NCBI GenBank assembly: GCA_036785375.1 | Contig: JAWMAR010000314.1 | Span: 2,666,001-2,730,000, forward strand | Reading direction: 5' to 3' | DNA length: 64,000 nucleotides | DNA from: Leucoraja ocellata | Lineage: Eukaryota | Shown: positions 1-64,000 of the stretch, piece after piece | Layout: each line of letters opens with the position of its first letter | Numbering within the stretch: position 1 is the stretch's first letter | Program-made: the position numbers

Positions 1-3000
1 CAGTACATTGTCAGTGACCCTACACACCAACATGTCCACATTTAGATGGAAAACACACAGGATAAACTGCAACCTCGTCTCCTTGGTATTTTACCCCACA
101 CACATGAATTATATTCAACATAAAGTCTCCGACTTTACAGAATTGTCCTGTGCACTTTGACCAGTCGGTACCAGAACTCTGCTGTCGTTGTGAATGCTGC
201 ACATTGCAACGGTGCGGCGGTGAGGCTGTCAGTGTGGGCAGTGACTGACCTAAAGGAGGAGTCACCACCTCTCGTTCTCATCACCTTTTATCACCTCCAG
301 CTGGCTGGCTCGCACCGACCCCAAGGATGTTGCTCGTGTGGAGAGACAAACGGTGATTGTCACCCCTGAACAGCGGGATGCCGTTCCCATAGCGAAGAAC
401 GGAGAGAGCCAGCTGGGCCGATGGCTGTCCGAGAAGGAATTTGAGAAGGCCTTCACCGCACGATTCCCAGAGTGTATGAAAGGTAAAAGGCGTTGATTCA
501 ATCTGTAATATTTCCCAGCTACTACTTTACGTTGATTAGAGAGTTACGCTCATTAACGGTTCAATAATAATGCCAGAGTCATTGATCTTCAGTGTAGATC
601 TTACCAGGCCCCAAGCTACATGGCATTTGGCCACATTCCTCAGCAGTTAAATTACCTAATGTGGTTCCACATCTACACTGAGGAACCAGGATACCTGCAG
701 CTGGTCTGGTCAACCCTGAATTCAAACTGTGAATATTGTGAACACATTTCCTGTCTGCACCAATTGTTCACAGTGGCTGGTCCGTGCCATATTACAGTGT
801 AGCGTGAATAAATACAGGAATCTACCGTATGTGACAATGTAGACAGGTGCAGTAACTATAGTTAAAACTCTACAGTGCTTCACATTTGGTAATAAGGCAT
901 TCTCCAGTGAGCTTCTGCTCCAGCAGTGCCCATGGACTGACCTCCTTGCTTTGAATCTCCAGGCCGTACGATGTACCTGATCCCGTTCAGCATGGGGCCC
1001 GTGGAGTCGCCTCTGAGCAAGTTTGGCGTCCAGCTCACGGACTCGCCCTACGTTGTAGCCAGCATGAGGATCATGACTCGTATGGGAGCGGCTGTGCTGG
1101 AGGCGCTGGGCAGCGGCCAGTTTGTGAAGTGTCTCCACTCAGTGGGCTGTCCTCTACCACTGAAGAGTAAGTGTGGTCCTGCTGTTTGAACGGCTTGTGC
1201 TGTGTGGATGATGGGGGAAGGGGTTGTTGTGTACTTTGAGGCAGAAACTTTGTATTGGGCCTGTGGTGACAATCTCCGTCTTGCTTGCAGAGCCACTGGT
1301 CAATAACTGGGCCTGCAACCCGGACCTCATCCTGGTCGCCCACATTCCTCAGCGCATGGAGATCACTTCATACGGGAGTGGCTACGGCGGCAACTCGCTG
1401 CTGGGGAAGAAATGCTTTGCCCTGCGCATTGCGTCGAGGATGGGCAGGGACGAGGGCTGGCTGGCTGAACACATGCTGGTGAGTAGATTCAAGATTCAAG
1501 ATTCAAGATAGATTTAATTGTCACGTGTGCCTGATGGCAAAGTGAAATGAATTTCCATACAGCCATACAATAAAAATCAACAGGACACAACGCACTATAG
1601 GGTTTGACATAAAACATCCCCACACAGCAGAATCAAAGTTCCCCACTGTGTGGGAAGGCACCAAAGTCAGTCTCTTCCTCCACTATTCCCCGTGGTCAGG
1701 GCCTCCCCGTGCCCTCCGCAGTTGCCGCTACGGGCGGCCCGATGTTCAGGACCGCACGCTGGGGTGTTAAAAGTCCGACGTCGGGGCTGCGGGATGTCCT
1801 CAGCGGCGTGGACACAGAGTCGGCCCCCTCCTACCGGAGTCTGCGGCTTCCAAAGTCCGCAGGCCGCGCCGGGTGGAGACTGCTGCTGGCGACCCTCTAC
1901 AAGGCGCCCCAGGACTCCACGATGCCGTTCAGCACTGCCCGCGTTGGAAGCTCTCCGCACCAGAGCTCCACGATGTTGGAGCAGCGGCCCAACGCCCCGG
2001 AGCTCCAAACGGCGACCCAGGTCGGCATCGCCCGCTCCGCGGTGACTCCAGCGCTGCGCCGCTGCTGTAGCAGCCCTGGTCCAGGTTCCCGGTCCCCGGC
2101 AGGAAAGGCCGCTCCGATCCAGCTGGTAGGCCGCGAGGTGGGGGGCGAGGACGCGACTCGGAGAAATAGTCGCGTCCCCGCCAGGAAGCTGAGAAACGGT
2201 TTCCCCCTTACCCTGCCCCCCTCCCCCACATAGAAAAGTAAAAGTTTCCCCCAACACAACACTTTGGACTAACTAAAAATAATAGAAAATACAGAAATAA
2301 CAGACAGGCTGTAGGTAGAGGCTGCTGCCAGTGCAGCGCCCCCTAGAGGGGGAGTAGAGGGGGAGGGGGGGGGGGGGGGGGCTGCTCCTTGTGGAGCCAC
2401 GGCTGGAGGGTTAGTCAGCAGCTGCAGATTATCAGTAACCTGGCTTTGCTCCCAGCGTCTGACCCGCCTCTCCCCTTCCTTCCTTCCACAGATCATGGGT
2501 GTGACCAACCCCAAAGGCCAGAAGAAGTACATTGCTGCCGCGTTCCCCAGCGCTTGTGGCAAAACTAACATGGCCATGATGAAGCCCACACTGCCCGGCT
2601 GGAAGGTGGAGTGTGTGGGAGATGACATCGCCTGGATGAAGTTTGATGAGCAAGGTTTGTGGGTTTTGACAATTCTCCACAGTTGAAATCAAATGAAACA
2701 AAATATTGAGGAAATTGTCCAATTTATTCCAAGCCTCGTGCCTGGTGTGAGAATGGTTAACCCTGTTAACAAAGATCTTCCTGCTCCTCTCCACAGGAAT
2801 CCTGAGGGCAATCAACCCTGAGAACGGCTTTTTCGGCGTTGCCCCCGGGACATCCGTGAAAACCAACCCAAACGCTATGAAAACCATCCATGAGAACACC
2901 ATTTTTACCAACGTGGCAGAGACCAGTGATGGCGGCGTTTACTGGGAAGGAATCGACGAAATCCTTCCTCCCCACATCACAGTGACTTCCTGGAGGAACA

Positions 3001-63000: not shown

Positions 63001-64000
63001 GAGGTCAGTCCATGGGCACTGCTGGAGCAGAAGCTCACTGGATAATGCCTTATTACCAAAATGTTAAGGAGAGTTTAAATTTTAATTATTGTACCTCTAC
63101 ACTGTCAAATATGGTAGCATTCCTATATATGTACAAGCTACACTGTGCAATTTGGCAAAGGTCCCACTAATATGTCCAAAGAGCGTTGGCAGGAAATTTG
63201 TTTGCAATGTCTGTGATTGTCAGCTGCAGGGATCCTAGCTCCTCGGTGTAGATCTGGAACCACCTTAGGTAATTTGAGTGTTGGGAGAGGTGGCCAAATG
63301 CCAGCGTAACTAGTCAACATAAAAGAGTAGCTGGGAGATATTACAGATTGAATCAACGCCTTTTACCTTTCATACACTCTGGGAATCGTGCGGTGAAGGC
63401 CTTCTCAAATTCCTTCTCGGACAGCCATCGGCCCAGCTGGCTCTGTCCGTTCTTCGCTATGGGAACGGTATCCCGCTGTTCAGGGGTCACAATCACCGTT
63501 TGACTCTCCACACGAGCAACATCCTTGGGGTCGGTGCGAGCCAGCCAGCTGGAGGTGATAAAAGGTGATGAGAACGAGAGGTGGTGACTCCTCCTATAGG
63601 TCAGTCACTGCCCACACTGACAGCCTCACTGCCGCACCGTTGCAATGTTCAGCATTCACAACGACTGCAGATTCTGGTACCGACTGGTCAAAGTGCACAG
63701 GACAATTCTGTAAAGTCGGAGACTTTATGTTGAATATAATGCATGTGTGGTGTAAACTAATAAGGGAGATGGGCAGAGAACTTTATACAACGTGTATTCC
63801 ATCTAAACCTGTGCATGGTGCTGTGTAGCATCACTGAAATTTTACTGGAAATGCTGACATTTGATATCTGTTTGGCATCAATGAATATTCATTAATGAAC
63901 TCGCATTATCTTCCATATCACTTTAAAGCTCGGTGCAGGAGCTAGATCTCTACCCATTCTAACATGACAAGTGTGATAATATGAAGGTCTGGGCAGTTCA

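What the first reader, a model, noticed from the sequence alone, without database searches (positions are those of the whole stretch)
301..64000. Amplified PCK1 cluster: one inverted copy plus a tandem array of at least three copies undergoing birth-and-death
Seen: four PCK1 copies, A on + and B/C/D on - in ~10-12 kb head-to-tail units, with A and B converging tail to tail about 24.5 kb apart. Each copy has its own fate: intact, promoter-deleted, or catalytic-exon-deleted. Established: PCK1 is a key gluconeogenic/glyceroneogenic enzyme and is normally single copy in vertebrates. Inference: a lineage-specific dosage or sub-functionalisation expansion in an elasmobranch, possibly tied to amino-acid-fuelled gluconeogenesis, lipid-rich liver glyceroneogenesis or yolk-sac glucose production. 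Copy number may be polymorphic.
[Added by the scan's program, not by the reader: the finding's places include an assembly gap (unread letters, written N; its length is only estimated) at 13274 to 13461. Whether the letters on both sides are continuous or in frame is not known: test that first.]
Basis: partly seen in the sequence, partly recalled or inferred. Interest (0 to 1): 0.8.

Follow-up and report, generated by a model that had tools for sequence, protein, structure and literature searches.

The report
Skate PCK1 gene cluster, partly decayed
A stretch of skate genome carries four copies of the glucose-making enzyme gene PCK1: one older inverted copy plus a young three-unit tandem array in which only the middle unit looks fully equipped, an ordinary case of gene birth and decay.

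Summary
The window carries four cytosolic-PEPCK (PCK1) copies. A lies on + (exons from 301 to the stop at 13049). B, C and D lie on - in head-to-tail units 33800-43895, 43896-55672 and 55673 to the window end.

All exons present are open and keep AG/GT splice sites. C is complete and has a TATA/CRE-like upstream segment. B has all 8 coding exons but lacks 330 bp holding that segment. D lacks the 163-nt P-loop exon, which shifts the frame. A and D are cut by the window ends.

The N gap lies 224 nt after A's stop codon. It breaks no exon, but A's orientation and the 24.5-kb spacing depend on that join.

Public annotations show two PCK1-like proteins on one contig in 19-20 of 23 cartilaginous-fish species, chimaera included. 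A matches one skate type and B/C/D the other. So the inverted pair is old and kept similar by gene conversion. Only the tandem array is young (dS about 0.02), and two of its three visible units carry disabling lesions, which argues against a dosage gain.

Read support could not be checked. I found no paper describing the pair or the array.

The parts
301..13049 (+). Copy A (A-type PCK1 paralog), coding exons 2-8 of 8: 301-482, 963-1166, 1291-1478, 2492-2654, 2797-3153, 5846-5941, 12595-13049 (stop included). The first coding exon and promoter lie upstream of the window.
   Evidence: Pfam PEPCK_N/PEPCK_GTP on 7 of 7 exon frames. Open frames and AG/GT. 5 of 5 A-type diagnostic residues.
1488..2358 (.). 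Insertion of about 864 bp in A's intron 4, CpG-rich, flanked by the 7-bp direct repeat GAGTAGA (1481-1487 and 2352-2358). Absent from B, C and D. Probably a mobile element.
   Evidence: GC 0.67, CpG o/e 0.89. No other copy in the window.
13274..13461 (.). Assembly gap (188 N), 224 nt downstream of A's stop codon, between a G-rich tract and a GT/GC-rich low-complexity tract.
   Evidence: Not filled and not looked up.
33720..34760 (+). LINE reverse-transcriptase ORF. The left edge of the tandem array (33800) falls inside it. Units C and D start at the same LINE base (43896, 55673).
   Evidence: RVT_1 E = 2.1e-34. Junction sequences. The same LINE family extends to both sides of 33800, shown by matches to A's intron 7.
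33800..43895 (-). Unit B. Gene B coding exons: 42253-42030, 41126-40945, 40571-40368, 40243-40056, 39919-39757, 39614-39258, 38909-38814, 38059-37605.
   Evidence: 12 of 13 B-type diagnostic residues.
42859..42863 (-). Scar of the 330-bp deletion in B: a single TCCAA where C has two TCCAA 330 bp apart. The TATA-like box and CRE-like site are lost. The putative non-coding exon 1 (donor at 42757) is kept.
   Evidence: B/C alignment. Motif positions.
43896..55672 (-). Unit C. Gene C coding exons: 53632-53409, 52505-52324, 51939-51736, 51611-51424, 51168-51006, 50863-50507, 50158-50063, 49323-48869. AATAAA lies about 750 nt after the stop codon.
   Evidence: 13 of 13 B-type diagnostic residues.
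54138..54573 (-). Putative promoter and non-coding exon 1 of C: TATTTAAAG 54262-54254; CRE-like TGACGTAC 54322-54315; ATTACGTAT 54366-54358; exon 1 about 54232-54138 with donor GTAAGT at 54137. The acceptor TTGTTTGCAG ends at 53663, 30 nt before the ATG.
   Evidence: The segment is unique in the window. Its function is inferred from motifs only.
51282..51443 (-). Tandem array (38 nt x 4.0) in C's intron 4. It repeats the last bases of exon 4, the splice donor and a G run. B has one copy.
55673..64000 (-). Unit D, cut by the window end. Gene D coding exons: 63548-63367, 62982-62779, 62654-62467, (exon 5 absent), 62225-61869, 61520-61425, 60670-60216.
   Evidence: 4 of 5 B-type diagnostic residues.
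62354..62482 (-). Tandem array (36 nt x 3.5) in D. Its last partial unit is joined directly to intron 5, replacing the rest of intron 4, all of exon 5 (P-loop, 163 nt) and the start of intron 5.
   Evidence: No exon-5 hit in D.

Best explanation
The window is the PCK1 (cytosolic GTP-dependent PEPCK) locus of a skate very close to Leucoraja.

Two layers of duplication are superimposed.

(1) An old paralog pair. A belongs to the type that in other skates, stingrays, a sawfish and a catshark carries an N-terminal extension. B, C and D belong to the canonical 622-aa type. The pair sits tail to tail and is kept nearly identical in most exons by repeated gene conversion, while introns 6 and 7 have diverged beyond recognition.

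(2) A young head-to-tail amplification of the 622-aa gene.
- A first, non-homologous tandem duplication joined a point 1.64 kb upstream of the ATG to a point inside a LINE about 3.8 kb downstream of the stop codon.
- Unequal crossing-over between units then added a further unit with the identical junction.
- The units are now decaying independently. B lost the 330-bp core promoter by a deletion between two TCCAA repeats. D lost the P-loop exon at an unstable G-run and 36-39-nt tandem repeat in intron 4, so a c4-c6 splice would be out of frame. C remains complete.

In view, the working gene content is therefore A plus C, the same two-gene state as in other cartilaginous fishes.

Shown: copy structure, junctions, lesions, type assignment, mosaic identity.
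Inferred: promoter function, order of events, gene conversion as the cause of the mosaic, non-function of B and D.
For: Family.
- Pfam PEPCK_N and PEPCK_GTP on every exon frame.
- Best named hits are cytosolic PEPCK of skates: 99% to a Leucoraja erinacea protein over the last exon.
- Against solved structures, the last exon scores 246.7 bits with cytosolic PEPCK and 186.4 with 2faf. The first exon aligns from residue 1-2, so there is no presequence.

Array.
- Units are 96-99% identical through both junctions, and the junctions are identical over 60+60 nt.
- The left edge lies inside an RVT_1 ORF.
- Of 7,201 three-way aligned columns, 157 vary: B odd 62, C odd 37, D odd 58. There are unit-specific indels of 67-1,067 columns.
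- dS is 0.019-0.025 among B, C and D.

Lesions.

Intactness: 29 of 29 exon instances are open with AG/GT.

Old pair.
- 19-20 of 23 species have two proteins on one contig.
- Diagnostic residues: A 5/5; B, C and D 12/13, 13/13 and 4/5.
- The first coding exon of B and C is 72/74 identical to the Leucoraja 622-aa protein but 51/73 to the 638-aa one.

Gene conversion.
- A and B are 98.5% identical over 2363-3247, introns included, and 89-92% over 1-1487. They show no similarity in introns 6-7 except 5 nt either side of exon 7.
- In protein trees, paralogs pair up by species or shallow clade.
- Holding the 8 batoid extended-type proteins together costs 305.5 lnL on the 547 columns after the first exon (p-AU 4e-101).
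- Yet 6 of 47 proteins from skates, stingrays, a sawfish and a catshark share the N-terminal motif F[QK].WW[YH][KRQ].C[STN]CN.
Against: - No reads, depth or RNA were available. The reality of each unit, of B's and D's lesions and of any transcription is untested.
- The promoter call rests on motif spacing that resembles my recollection of the mammalian PCK1 promoter, not on data.
- dN/dS among B, C and D is low (0.14-0.19) and shows no relaxation. Counts are tiny (3-7 non-synonymous, 6-10 synonymous differences), so this neither supports nor excludes pseudogene status.
- A's first exon, and hence its N-terminal extension, lies outside the window, as do D's first exon and promoter.
- The Leucoraja 622-aa protein is identical to neither B nor C. 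More units may lie beyond base 64000, and some could be functional.
- The clade for the AU test was named after the first tree had been seen, and the tree was a 'quick' one.
- Whether the two proteins per species are separate genes is inferred from names and accession numbers. For Pristiophorus it is ambiguous.
Confidence: 0.7

Rival explanations
1. One reading: a lineage-specific adaptive amplification of PCK1 that raises dosage or divides labour among four copies in an elasmobranch.
For: Four copies exist, and all exons present are open with low dN/dS (0.14-0.38). B keeps all eight coding exons. More units may lie beyond the window end (one search shows the Leucoraja protein matches none exactly).
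Against: The A/B pair is not lineage-specific. Two of the three array units in view carry a lesion expected to disable them. No expression data exist.
Confidence: 0.12
2. Assembly artefact: the tandem units are haplotypes or mis-assembled repeats of a single gene, and the lesions in B and D are assembly errors at homopolymer runs.
For: The D lesion and the C expansion sit at G runs of 13-18 nt, which are hard to sequence. No read data could be consulted.
Against: There are three units, not two. No gap lies between them; the only N run is at 13274-13461. The units differ at about 2% of aligned columns and by many unit-specific indels of 67-1,067 columns. Both junctions are clean and identical. 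B's deletion is bounded by a 5-bp direct repeat, as real deletions often are.
Confidence: 0.08
3. The A/B pair arose by separate recent duplications in many lineages, not by one old duplication followed by gene conversion.
For: Protein trees pair the paralogs by species in Callorhinchus, Mustelus, Heterodontus, Heptranchias, Stegostoma, Scyliorhinus torazame, Rhinoraja and Pristis. dS between A and B/C/D is only 0.034-0.044.
Against: The N-terminal extension motif is shared by skates, stingrays, a sawfish and a catshark (6 proteins). The first coding exon separates the two types sharply (51/73 against 72/74). A and B share no similarity in introns 6-7 yet are 98.5% identical in a neighbouring block that includes introns. 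That pattern is a mosaic, not uniform young divergence.
Confidence: 0.15
4. A is wrongly placed or oriented. The sequence left of the gap (1-13273) was joined to the rest by scaffolding only, so 'inverted, tail to tail, 24.5 kb apart' may be wrong.
For: The gap lies just after A's stop codon, with no polyadenylation signal before it. No homology between A's and B's 3' flanks continues across it, so nothing in the sequence ties the two sides together.
Against: Related species have both proteins on one chromosome-scale contig, often with adjacent accession numbers. A repeat family occurs on both sides of the gap (6424-7806 against 14998-16107), which is weak support at best.
Confidence: 0.12

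Closest known systems
Vertebrate PCK1 (cytosolic GTP-dependent phosphoenolpyruvate carboxykinase); solved rat and human enzymes (e.g. 2qew, 1khb)
   Same: Both Pfam domains are present. The length is 622 aa and there is no presequence. The last exon scores 246.7 bits with the cytosolic enzymes. A non-coding first exon is implied by the acceptor 30 nt before the ATG.
   Different: There are eight coding exons here; the mammalian count is recalled, not checked. There are several copies. The promoter resemblance (TATTTAAAG with a CRE-like site 53 bp upstream) is recalled from the rat gene and not tested.
The two annotated 'PEPCK, cytosolic [GTP]-like' genes of Leucoraja erinacea (XP_055508019, 638 aa; XP_055508020, 622 aa) and Amblyraja radiata (XP_032897884; XP_032897882)
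   Same: A matches the 638/608-aa type and B, C and D the 622-aa type at the diagnostic residues. Per-exon identities are 59/60 to 67/67 for most exons.
   Different: No window copy is identical to either Leucoraja protein. A differs at 6 of 442 in-window residues, and B and C each at 2 of 74 in exon 1. Only one 622-aa-type protein is annotated there, whereas this window has at least three units of that type.
Young tandem gene arrays evolving by birth and death with unequal crossing-over (a general, well-known pattern)
   Same: Head-to-tail units share one junction, divergence is about 2%, lesions are unit-specific, and one member is complete.
   Different: The founding junction is non-homologous (LINE interior joined to unique upstream DNA) and not between two repeat copies. 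The array sits beside an older inverted paralog with which it exchanges sequence.
PCK2 (mitochondrial PEPCK)
   Same: The same two Pfam domains and the same fold family.
   Different: The window copies score lower against the chain 2faf (186.4 against 246.7 bits for the last exon; 37.9 against 63-71 for exon 1). That 2faf is the chicken mitochondrial enzyme is recalled, not given by the tool. Catshark papers list a separate pck2.

Membership tests
GTP-dependent PEPCK (Pfam PF17297 + PF00821) | N-terminal PEPCK_N domain | tested here: met
   Exons 2-4 of A hit PF17297 (E = 4.8e-14 to 1.6e-30), covering profile positions 46-218.
GTP-dependent PEPCK (Pfam PF17297 + PF00821) | C-terminal P-loop domain PEPCK_GTP, complete | tested here: met
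   Exons 5-8 of A cover profile positions 8-357 of 357. B and C have the same exons. Not met for D, which lacks exon 5 (profile positions 8-62).
GTP-dependent PEPCK (Pfam PF17297 + PF00821) | Enzyme activity (oxaloacetate + GTP to PEP) | not testable with these tools
   No assay is possible. The residues [24 protein letters not shown] and NWF are present in A, B and C. Their roles are recalled, not tested.
PCK1 (cytosolic) as opposed to PCK2 (mitochondrial) | Closer to cytosolic enzymes, with no N-terminal presequence | tested here: met
   All named entries among the 120 hits listed, apart from a few called hypothetical protein or 'Protein kinase C-like 1', are 'cytosolic'. PDB scores favour the cytosolic chains, and exon 1 aligns from residue 1-2. 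Tested for B and C only at exon 1.
Cartilaginous-fish PCK1 paralog pair (extended type / 622-aa type) | Two different full-length proteins on one contig in related species | tested here: met
   19-20 of 23 species in the seven clusters read. That these are separate genes is inferred from names and accession numbers.
Cartilaginous-fish PCK1 paralog pair (extended type / 622-aa type) | Window copies carry type-specific residues | tested here: met
   A 5/5 extended-type. B 12/13, C 13/13 and D 4/5 622-aa-type.
Cartilaginous-fish PCK1 paralog pair (extended type / 622-aa type) | A has the N-terminal extension exon | not testable with these tools
   A's first coding exon lies before base 1 of the window.
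Tandem array evolving by birth and death | At least three head-to-tail units with one shared junction | tested here: met
Tandem array evolving by birth and death | Members with disabling lesions beside an intact member | tested here: inconclusive
   The lesions are in the sequence. That they abolish function is inferred. dN/dS gives no signal.
Tandem array evolving by birth and death | Units are real in the genome and not an assembly product; copy number varies among individuals | not testable with these tools
   No reads and no other individuals were available.
Concerted evolution by gene conversion | Mosaic of near-identical and unalignable segments between paralogs | tested here: met
   98.5% over 2363-3247, 89-92% over 1-1487, and nothing in introns 6-7.
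Concerted evolution by gene conversion | Paralogs group by species although a type-specific part is shared across orders | tested here: met
   Trees, the AU test and the shared motif. The clade was named after the first tree had been seen.

The most novel reading that the evidence does not exclude
All elasmobranchs, perhaps all cartilaginous fishes, keep an ancient linked pair of PCK1 genes, tail to tail in this window. Their bodies are continually homogenised by gene conversion. One member has acquired a conserved cysteine-rich, basic-then-acidic N-terminal extension (F-Q/K-x-W-W-Y/H-K/R-x-C-S/T-C-N, then EEDEE), which would send a cytosolic-type PEPCK to a different place in the cell, for example a membrane by lipid attachment. 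The skate tandem array would be a recent by-product of the same recombination-prone locus. This would be an undescribed, long-lived sub-functionalisation of a central gluconeogenic enzyme in a group whose fuel use is unusual.
Probability: 0.3. Interest if true: 0.6.

Novelty: new member of a known kind. Interest (0 to 1): 0.38.

Why it matters
PCK1 is usually handled as a single gene in comparative physiology. The catshark yolk-sac studies and a shark synteny study that I could read do so.

If cartilaginous fishes carry two or more near-identical PCK1 genes, then qPCR primers, in-situ probes and RNA-seq counts for 'pck1' pool paralogs that may have different promoters and N-termini.

The window also gives a clean, datable example of how a tandem array forms. 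A non-homologous junction inside a LINE came first, then unequal crossing-over, and the units then decayed within about 2% divergence. It also shows a G-run in an intron acting as a recurrent breakage site in all four copies.

As a discovery it is modest. The gene, the duplication mechanism and the two-gene state (in public annotations) are all known kinds.

Tried and rejected
- Genes between A and B. Pfam on 10 long ORFs (9 from 13.5-37.6 kb, 1 from A's intron insertion) gave only two reverse transcriptases and one LINE-tail match; 7 of 10 had no hit. tblastn with PCK1 exons and skate proteins found no further PCK1 fragment there.
- RNA genes. tRNA scan: 0 genes. Rfam at gathering thresholds: one hit, a decayed U6atac.
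- Mobile-element origin of the unit-specific segments. I asked whether the 330-bp segment missing from B, the 809-bp C-specific segment, the 620-bp D-specific segment or A's 864-bp insertion have other copies in the window. None does, so this could not be shown.
- Birth order of B, C and D. Three-way site patterns gave a near-star result (62/37/58), so no order is claimed.
- Relaxed constraint in B and D. The dN/dS counts are too small.
- Continuity across the gap. I tried to use A-to-B homology of the 3' flanks. Homology ends 42 nt after the stop codon, so it says nothing.
- Literature. Seven searches found no paper describing a PCK1 pair or array in cartilaginous fishes. One search was badly posed (any 2 of 6 terms), and none of its 25 listed papers contains pck1.
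- Not done:
Everything was run exon by exon and per-exon counts were summed.
  - No structure or complex prediction was run, as it was not needed.
Copy number and orientation in other species therefore stayed unchecked.
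Full report
**1. What is in the sequence**

The window has one N run, 13274-13461. Self-comparison shows three head-to-tail repeat units:
- B, 33800-43895 (10,096 bp)
- C, 43896-55672 (11,777 bp)
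- D, 55673 to the window end

Blocks are 96.2-99.2% identical, and the alignments run uninterrupted through both unit junctions. The first 13 kb share only short inverted blocks with these units.

Stop-to-stop frames in 1-13049 (+) hold seven pieces that each hit Pfam PEPCK_N or PEPCK_GTP (7 of 7). tblastn with those pieces finds all seven on the minus strand in B and C, and six of seven in D. A further first coding exon, beginning MAPQFQ, is present in B and C.

**2. Exon-by-exon model**

I fixed exon ends from splice signals and reading phase. The coordinates are in the parts list.

All 29 exon instances present are open and flanked by AG and GT (or ATG and stop). The breakdown is A 7, B 8, C 8 and D 6. 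B's eight exons sum to 1,869 nt, i.e. 622 codons plus stop, the length of the annotated 622-aa skate protein.

All searches, translations and substitution counts were made per exon, and only the counts were added up.

A's first coding exon lies before base 1. The finding's start, 301, is the first base of A's second coding exon. D's first coding exon lies beyond base 64000.

**3. The gap**

The N run begins 224 nt after A's stop codon (13047-13049). It is flanked by a G-rich tract on the left and a GT/GC-rich tract on the right. It interrupts no exon and raises no frame question.

A has no AATAAA or ATTAAA in those 224 nt, whereas B, C and D have AATAAA about 750 nt after their stop codons. 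A's 3' UTR therefore probably enters the gap. A-to-B similarity stops 42 nt after the stop codon, so nothing in the sequence bridges the gap.

The tail-to-tail orientation and the 24,556-bp stop-to-stop distance therefore depend on the scaffold join.

**4. Identity of the gene and of the organism**

A's last exon finds cytosolic PEPCK throughout. The best named hit is a Leucoraja erinacea protein at 99%. Against solved structures, C's last exon scores 246.7 bits with cytosolic PEPCK chains and 186.4 with 2faf. C's first exon aligns from residue 1-2 of the cytosolic enzymes. These are therefore PCK1-type genes without a presequence.

With exact exons, the window copies are 59/60 to 67/67 identical to the Leucoraja and Amblyraja proteins in most exons, but identical overall to none. 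The window comes from a skate very close to Leucoraja. I did not try to identify the record.

**5. The pair is old**

The cluster look-up lists named PCK1-like proteins from 23 cartilaginous-fish species.
- In 19-20 of them, two different full-length proteins sit on one contig, often with adjacent accession numbers. Callorhinchus is among these.
- Pristiophorus is ambiguous.
- Narcine, Rhincodon and Chiloscyllium plagiosum show one.

Leucoraja, Rhinoraja and Amblyraja each have a longer or differently starting type (638, 638 and 608 aa) and a 622-aa type.

I took the positions where both Leucoraja and Amblyraja separate the two types.
- A has 5 of 5 residues of the first type.
- B, C and D have 12/13, 13/13 and 4/5 residues of the 622-aa type.
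- The first coding exon of B and C is 72/74 identical to the Leucoraja 622-aa protein but 51/73 to the 638-aa one.

So A and B/C/D are orthologs of two different skate genes. The claim of a lineage-specific inverted copy fails.

The same hit list also shows two PCK1-like proteins on one contig in two frogs and four in a lemming. 'Single copy in vertebrates' is therefore too strong in general, although I did not check whether those are isoforms.

**6. Concerted evolution**

A and B align as follows:
- 89-92% over 1-1487
- 98.5% over 2363-3247, including introns 4 (part), 5 and 6 (part)
- only 5 nt beyond each side of exon 7
- from 159 nt before the last exon to 42 nt after the stop codon

Introns 6 and 7 are unalignable. 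They measure 2.7 and 6.7 kb in A, against 0.35 and 0.75 kb in B. dS between A and the array copies is only 0.034-0.044.

In a tree of 48 proteins, the two paralogs pair by species or shallow clade in most lineages. They form two type clades only within Leucoraja+Amblyraja and within the stingray/manta group. On the 547 columns after the first exon, forcing the eight batoid extended-type proteins together costs 305.5 log-likelihood units (p-AU 4e-101). That group was named after I had seen the first tree, and the tree was a 'quick' one.

Yet the extended N-terminus carries a motif found in 6 of 47 proteins: two skates, two stingrays, a sawfish and a catshark isoform.

The simplest reading is one old duplication whose exon bodies are repeatedly homogenised. 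Independent duplications remain possible.

**7. The array is young and was built in two steps**

The left edge, 33800, lies inside a LINE reverse-transcriptase ORF (33720-34760, RVT_1 E = 2.1e-34). That ORF's sequence continues leftwards only in B. Units C and D begin at the same LINE base, preceded by unique DNA 1.64 kb upstream of the PCK1 ATG.

The junction is therefore non-homologous. At most, an AAGAGT lies a few bases from it on both sides. Because it is the same at B/C and C/D, the extra unit most likely arose by unequal crossing-over between existing units.

Of 7,201 columns aligned in all three units, 157 differ: B alone 62, C alone 37, D alone 58. The units also differ by private indels of 67 to 1,067 columns. 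dS among them is 0.019-0.025.

**8. Lesions**

- **B.** Relative to C, B lacks 330 bp between two TCCAA repeats (C 54573-54569 and 54243-54239; one copy remains at B 42863-42859). In C that segment holds TATTTAAAG (54262-54254, gene strand), a CRE-like TGACGTAC 53 bp upstream of it, and ATTACGTAT and CCAAT-type motifs. It is followed by a putative non-coding exon of about 95 nt with a GTAAGT donor. An acceptor lies 30 nt before the ATG. The arrangement resembles what I recall of the mammalian PCK1 promoter. That is a lead, not a test.
- **D.** The end of exon 4, its donor and a G run form a 36-nt tandem array of 3.5 copies. The last copy is fused to intron 5, with exon 5 gone. Exon 5 is 163 nt and encodes FPSACGKTN, so splicing exon 4 to exon 6 would shift the frame.
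- **The same intron spot is unstable in every copy.** B has one unit of the repeat. C has four (51282-51443). A has an 864-bp CpG-rich insertion with a 7-bp target duplication exactly there.

**9. Verdict**

Birth and death of a tandem array is a fair description. A lineage-specific dosage expansion is not, because the pair is general to the group and only one of the three visible array units is fully equipped.

An assembly artefact is unlikely, given three units, no gaps between them, about 2% divergence and private indels. It cannot be excluded without reads.

**10. Literature**

Seven full-text searches found no description of a PCK1 pair or array in cartilaginous fishes.
- Passages read in PMC7471279 state one-to-one PCK1 orthology between bamboo shark, turtle and human.
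- Passages read in 10.1101/2024.03.29.587137 and in its published form PMC11136554 use single pck1 and pck2 genes in a catshark.
- All other papers were seen as search listings only.
- Supplements were closed. Supplementary Fig. S3 of PMC7471279 may bear on copy number in the bamboo shark.

Noticed in passing
window 28596-28692 (-): Rfam U6atac match (55.9 bits, gathering score 33). It lacks 10 model positions that include the GAGAGA stretch, collapses 21 positions of a 3' stem-loop to 1, and has no terminal U run. Probably a decayed snRNA copy lying between the PCK1 paralogs.
   Followed up: partly
window 1488-2358: A CpG-rich (GC 0.67, CpG o/e 0.89) insertion of 864 bp in A's intron 4, with a 7-bp target-site duplication GAGTAGA. 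It has long ORFs on both strands without a Pfam hit and no other copy in the window.
   Followed up: partly
window 40047-40056, 51282-51443, 62354-62482, 1479-1487: The first bases of intron 4 (GTGAGTAGA followed by a G run of 13-18) are a recurrent rearrangement site. They show a mobile-element insertion in A, one copy of the repeat unit in B, four copies in C, and 3.5 copies plus the exon deletion in D.
   Followed up: yes
window 26240-27513 (+): A second LINE: an RVT_1 ORF (E = 1.7e-33) followed by an ORF that hits Pfam ALKBH8_N (PF09004, E = 4.4e-17). That family name probably reflects LINE-derived sequence, not a DNA-repair gene.
   Followed up: no
window 20251-21000 and 30751-31250: CpG-island-like segments (GC 0.56-0.59, CpG o/e 0.65-0.86; window average 0.42) with ORFs of 173-209 aa and no Pfam hit. 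They could be promoters, unannotated exons or mobile elements.
   Followed up: no
window 6424-7806 and 14998-16107; tandem arrays 6821-7173 (51 nt x 7) and 15368-15501 (49 nt x 2.8): A repeat family of about 1.3 kb with internal 48-51-nt tandem arrays occurs in A's intron 7 and again just right of the gap, at 82-84% identity.
   Followed up: no
proteins P0002, P0122, P0136, P0137, P0141, P0156 (other species; not in the window): The extended PCK1 paralog has a conserved N-terminal motif, F[QK].WW[YH][KRQ].C[STN]CN. In the five batoid proteins (skates, stingrays, sawfish) an acidic run (EEDEE) follows; the catshark isoform has the motif but no such run. The paired cysteines next to basic residues look like a lipid-attachment or targeting signal. 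This is my guess and was not tested.
   Followed up: partly
table: The contigs that carry the Leucoraja erinacea and Rhinoraja longicauda proteins are 38,390,410 and 38,390,779 bp long. That is almost the same length, although the proteins differ by 5-15%. One assembly may have been scaffolded on the other.
   Followed up: no
table: Two PCK1-like proteins on one contig in the frogs Hyperolius riggenbachi and Gastrophryne carolinensis, and four in Lemmus lemmus. PCK1 duplicates, or isoforms named as such, are not confined to cartilaginous fishes.
   Followed up: no
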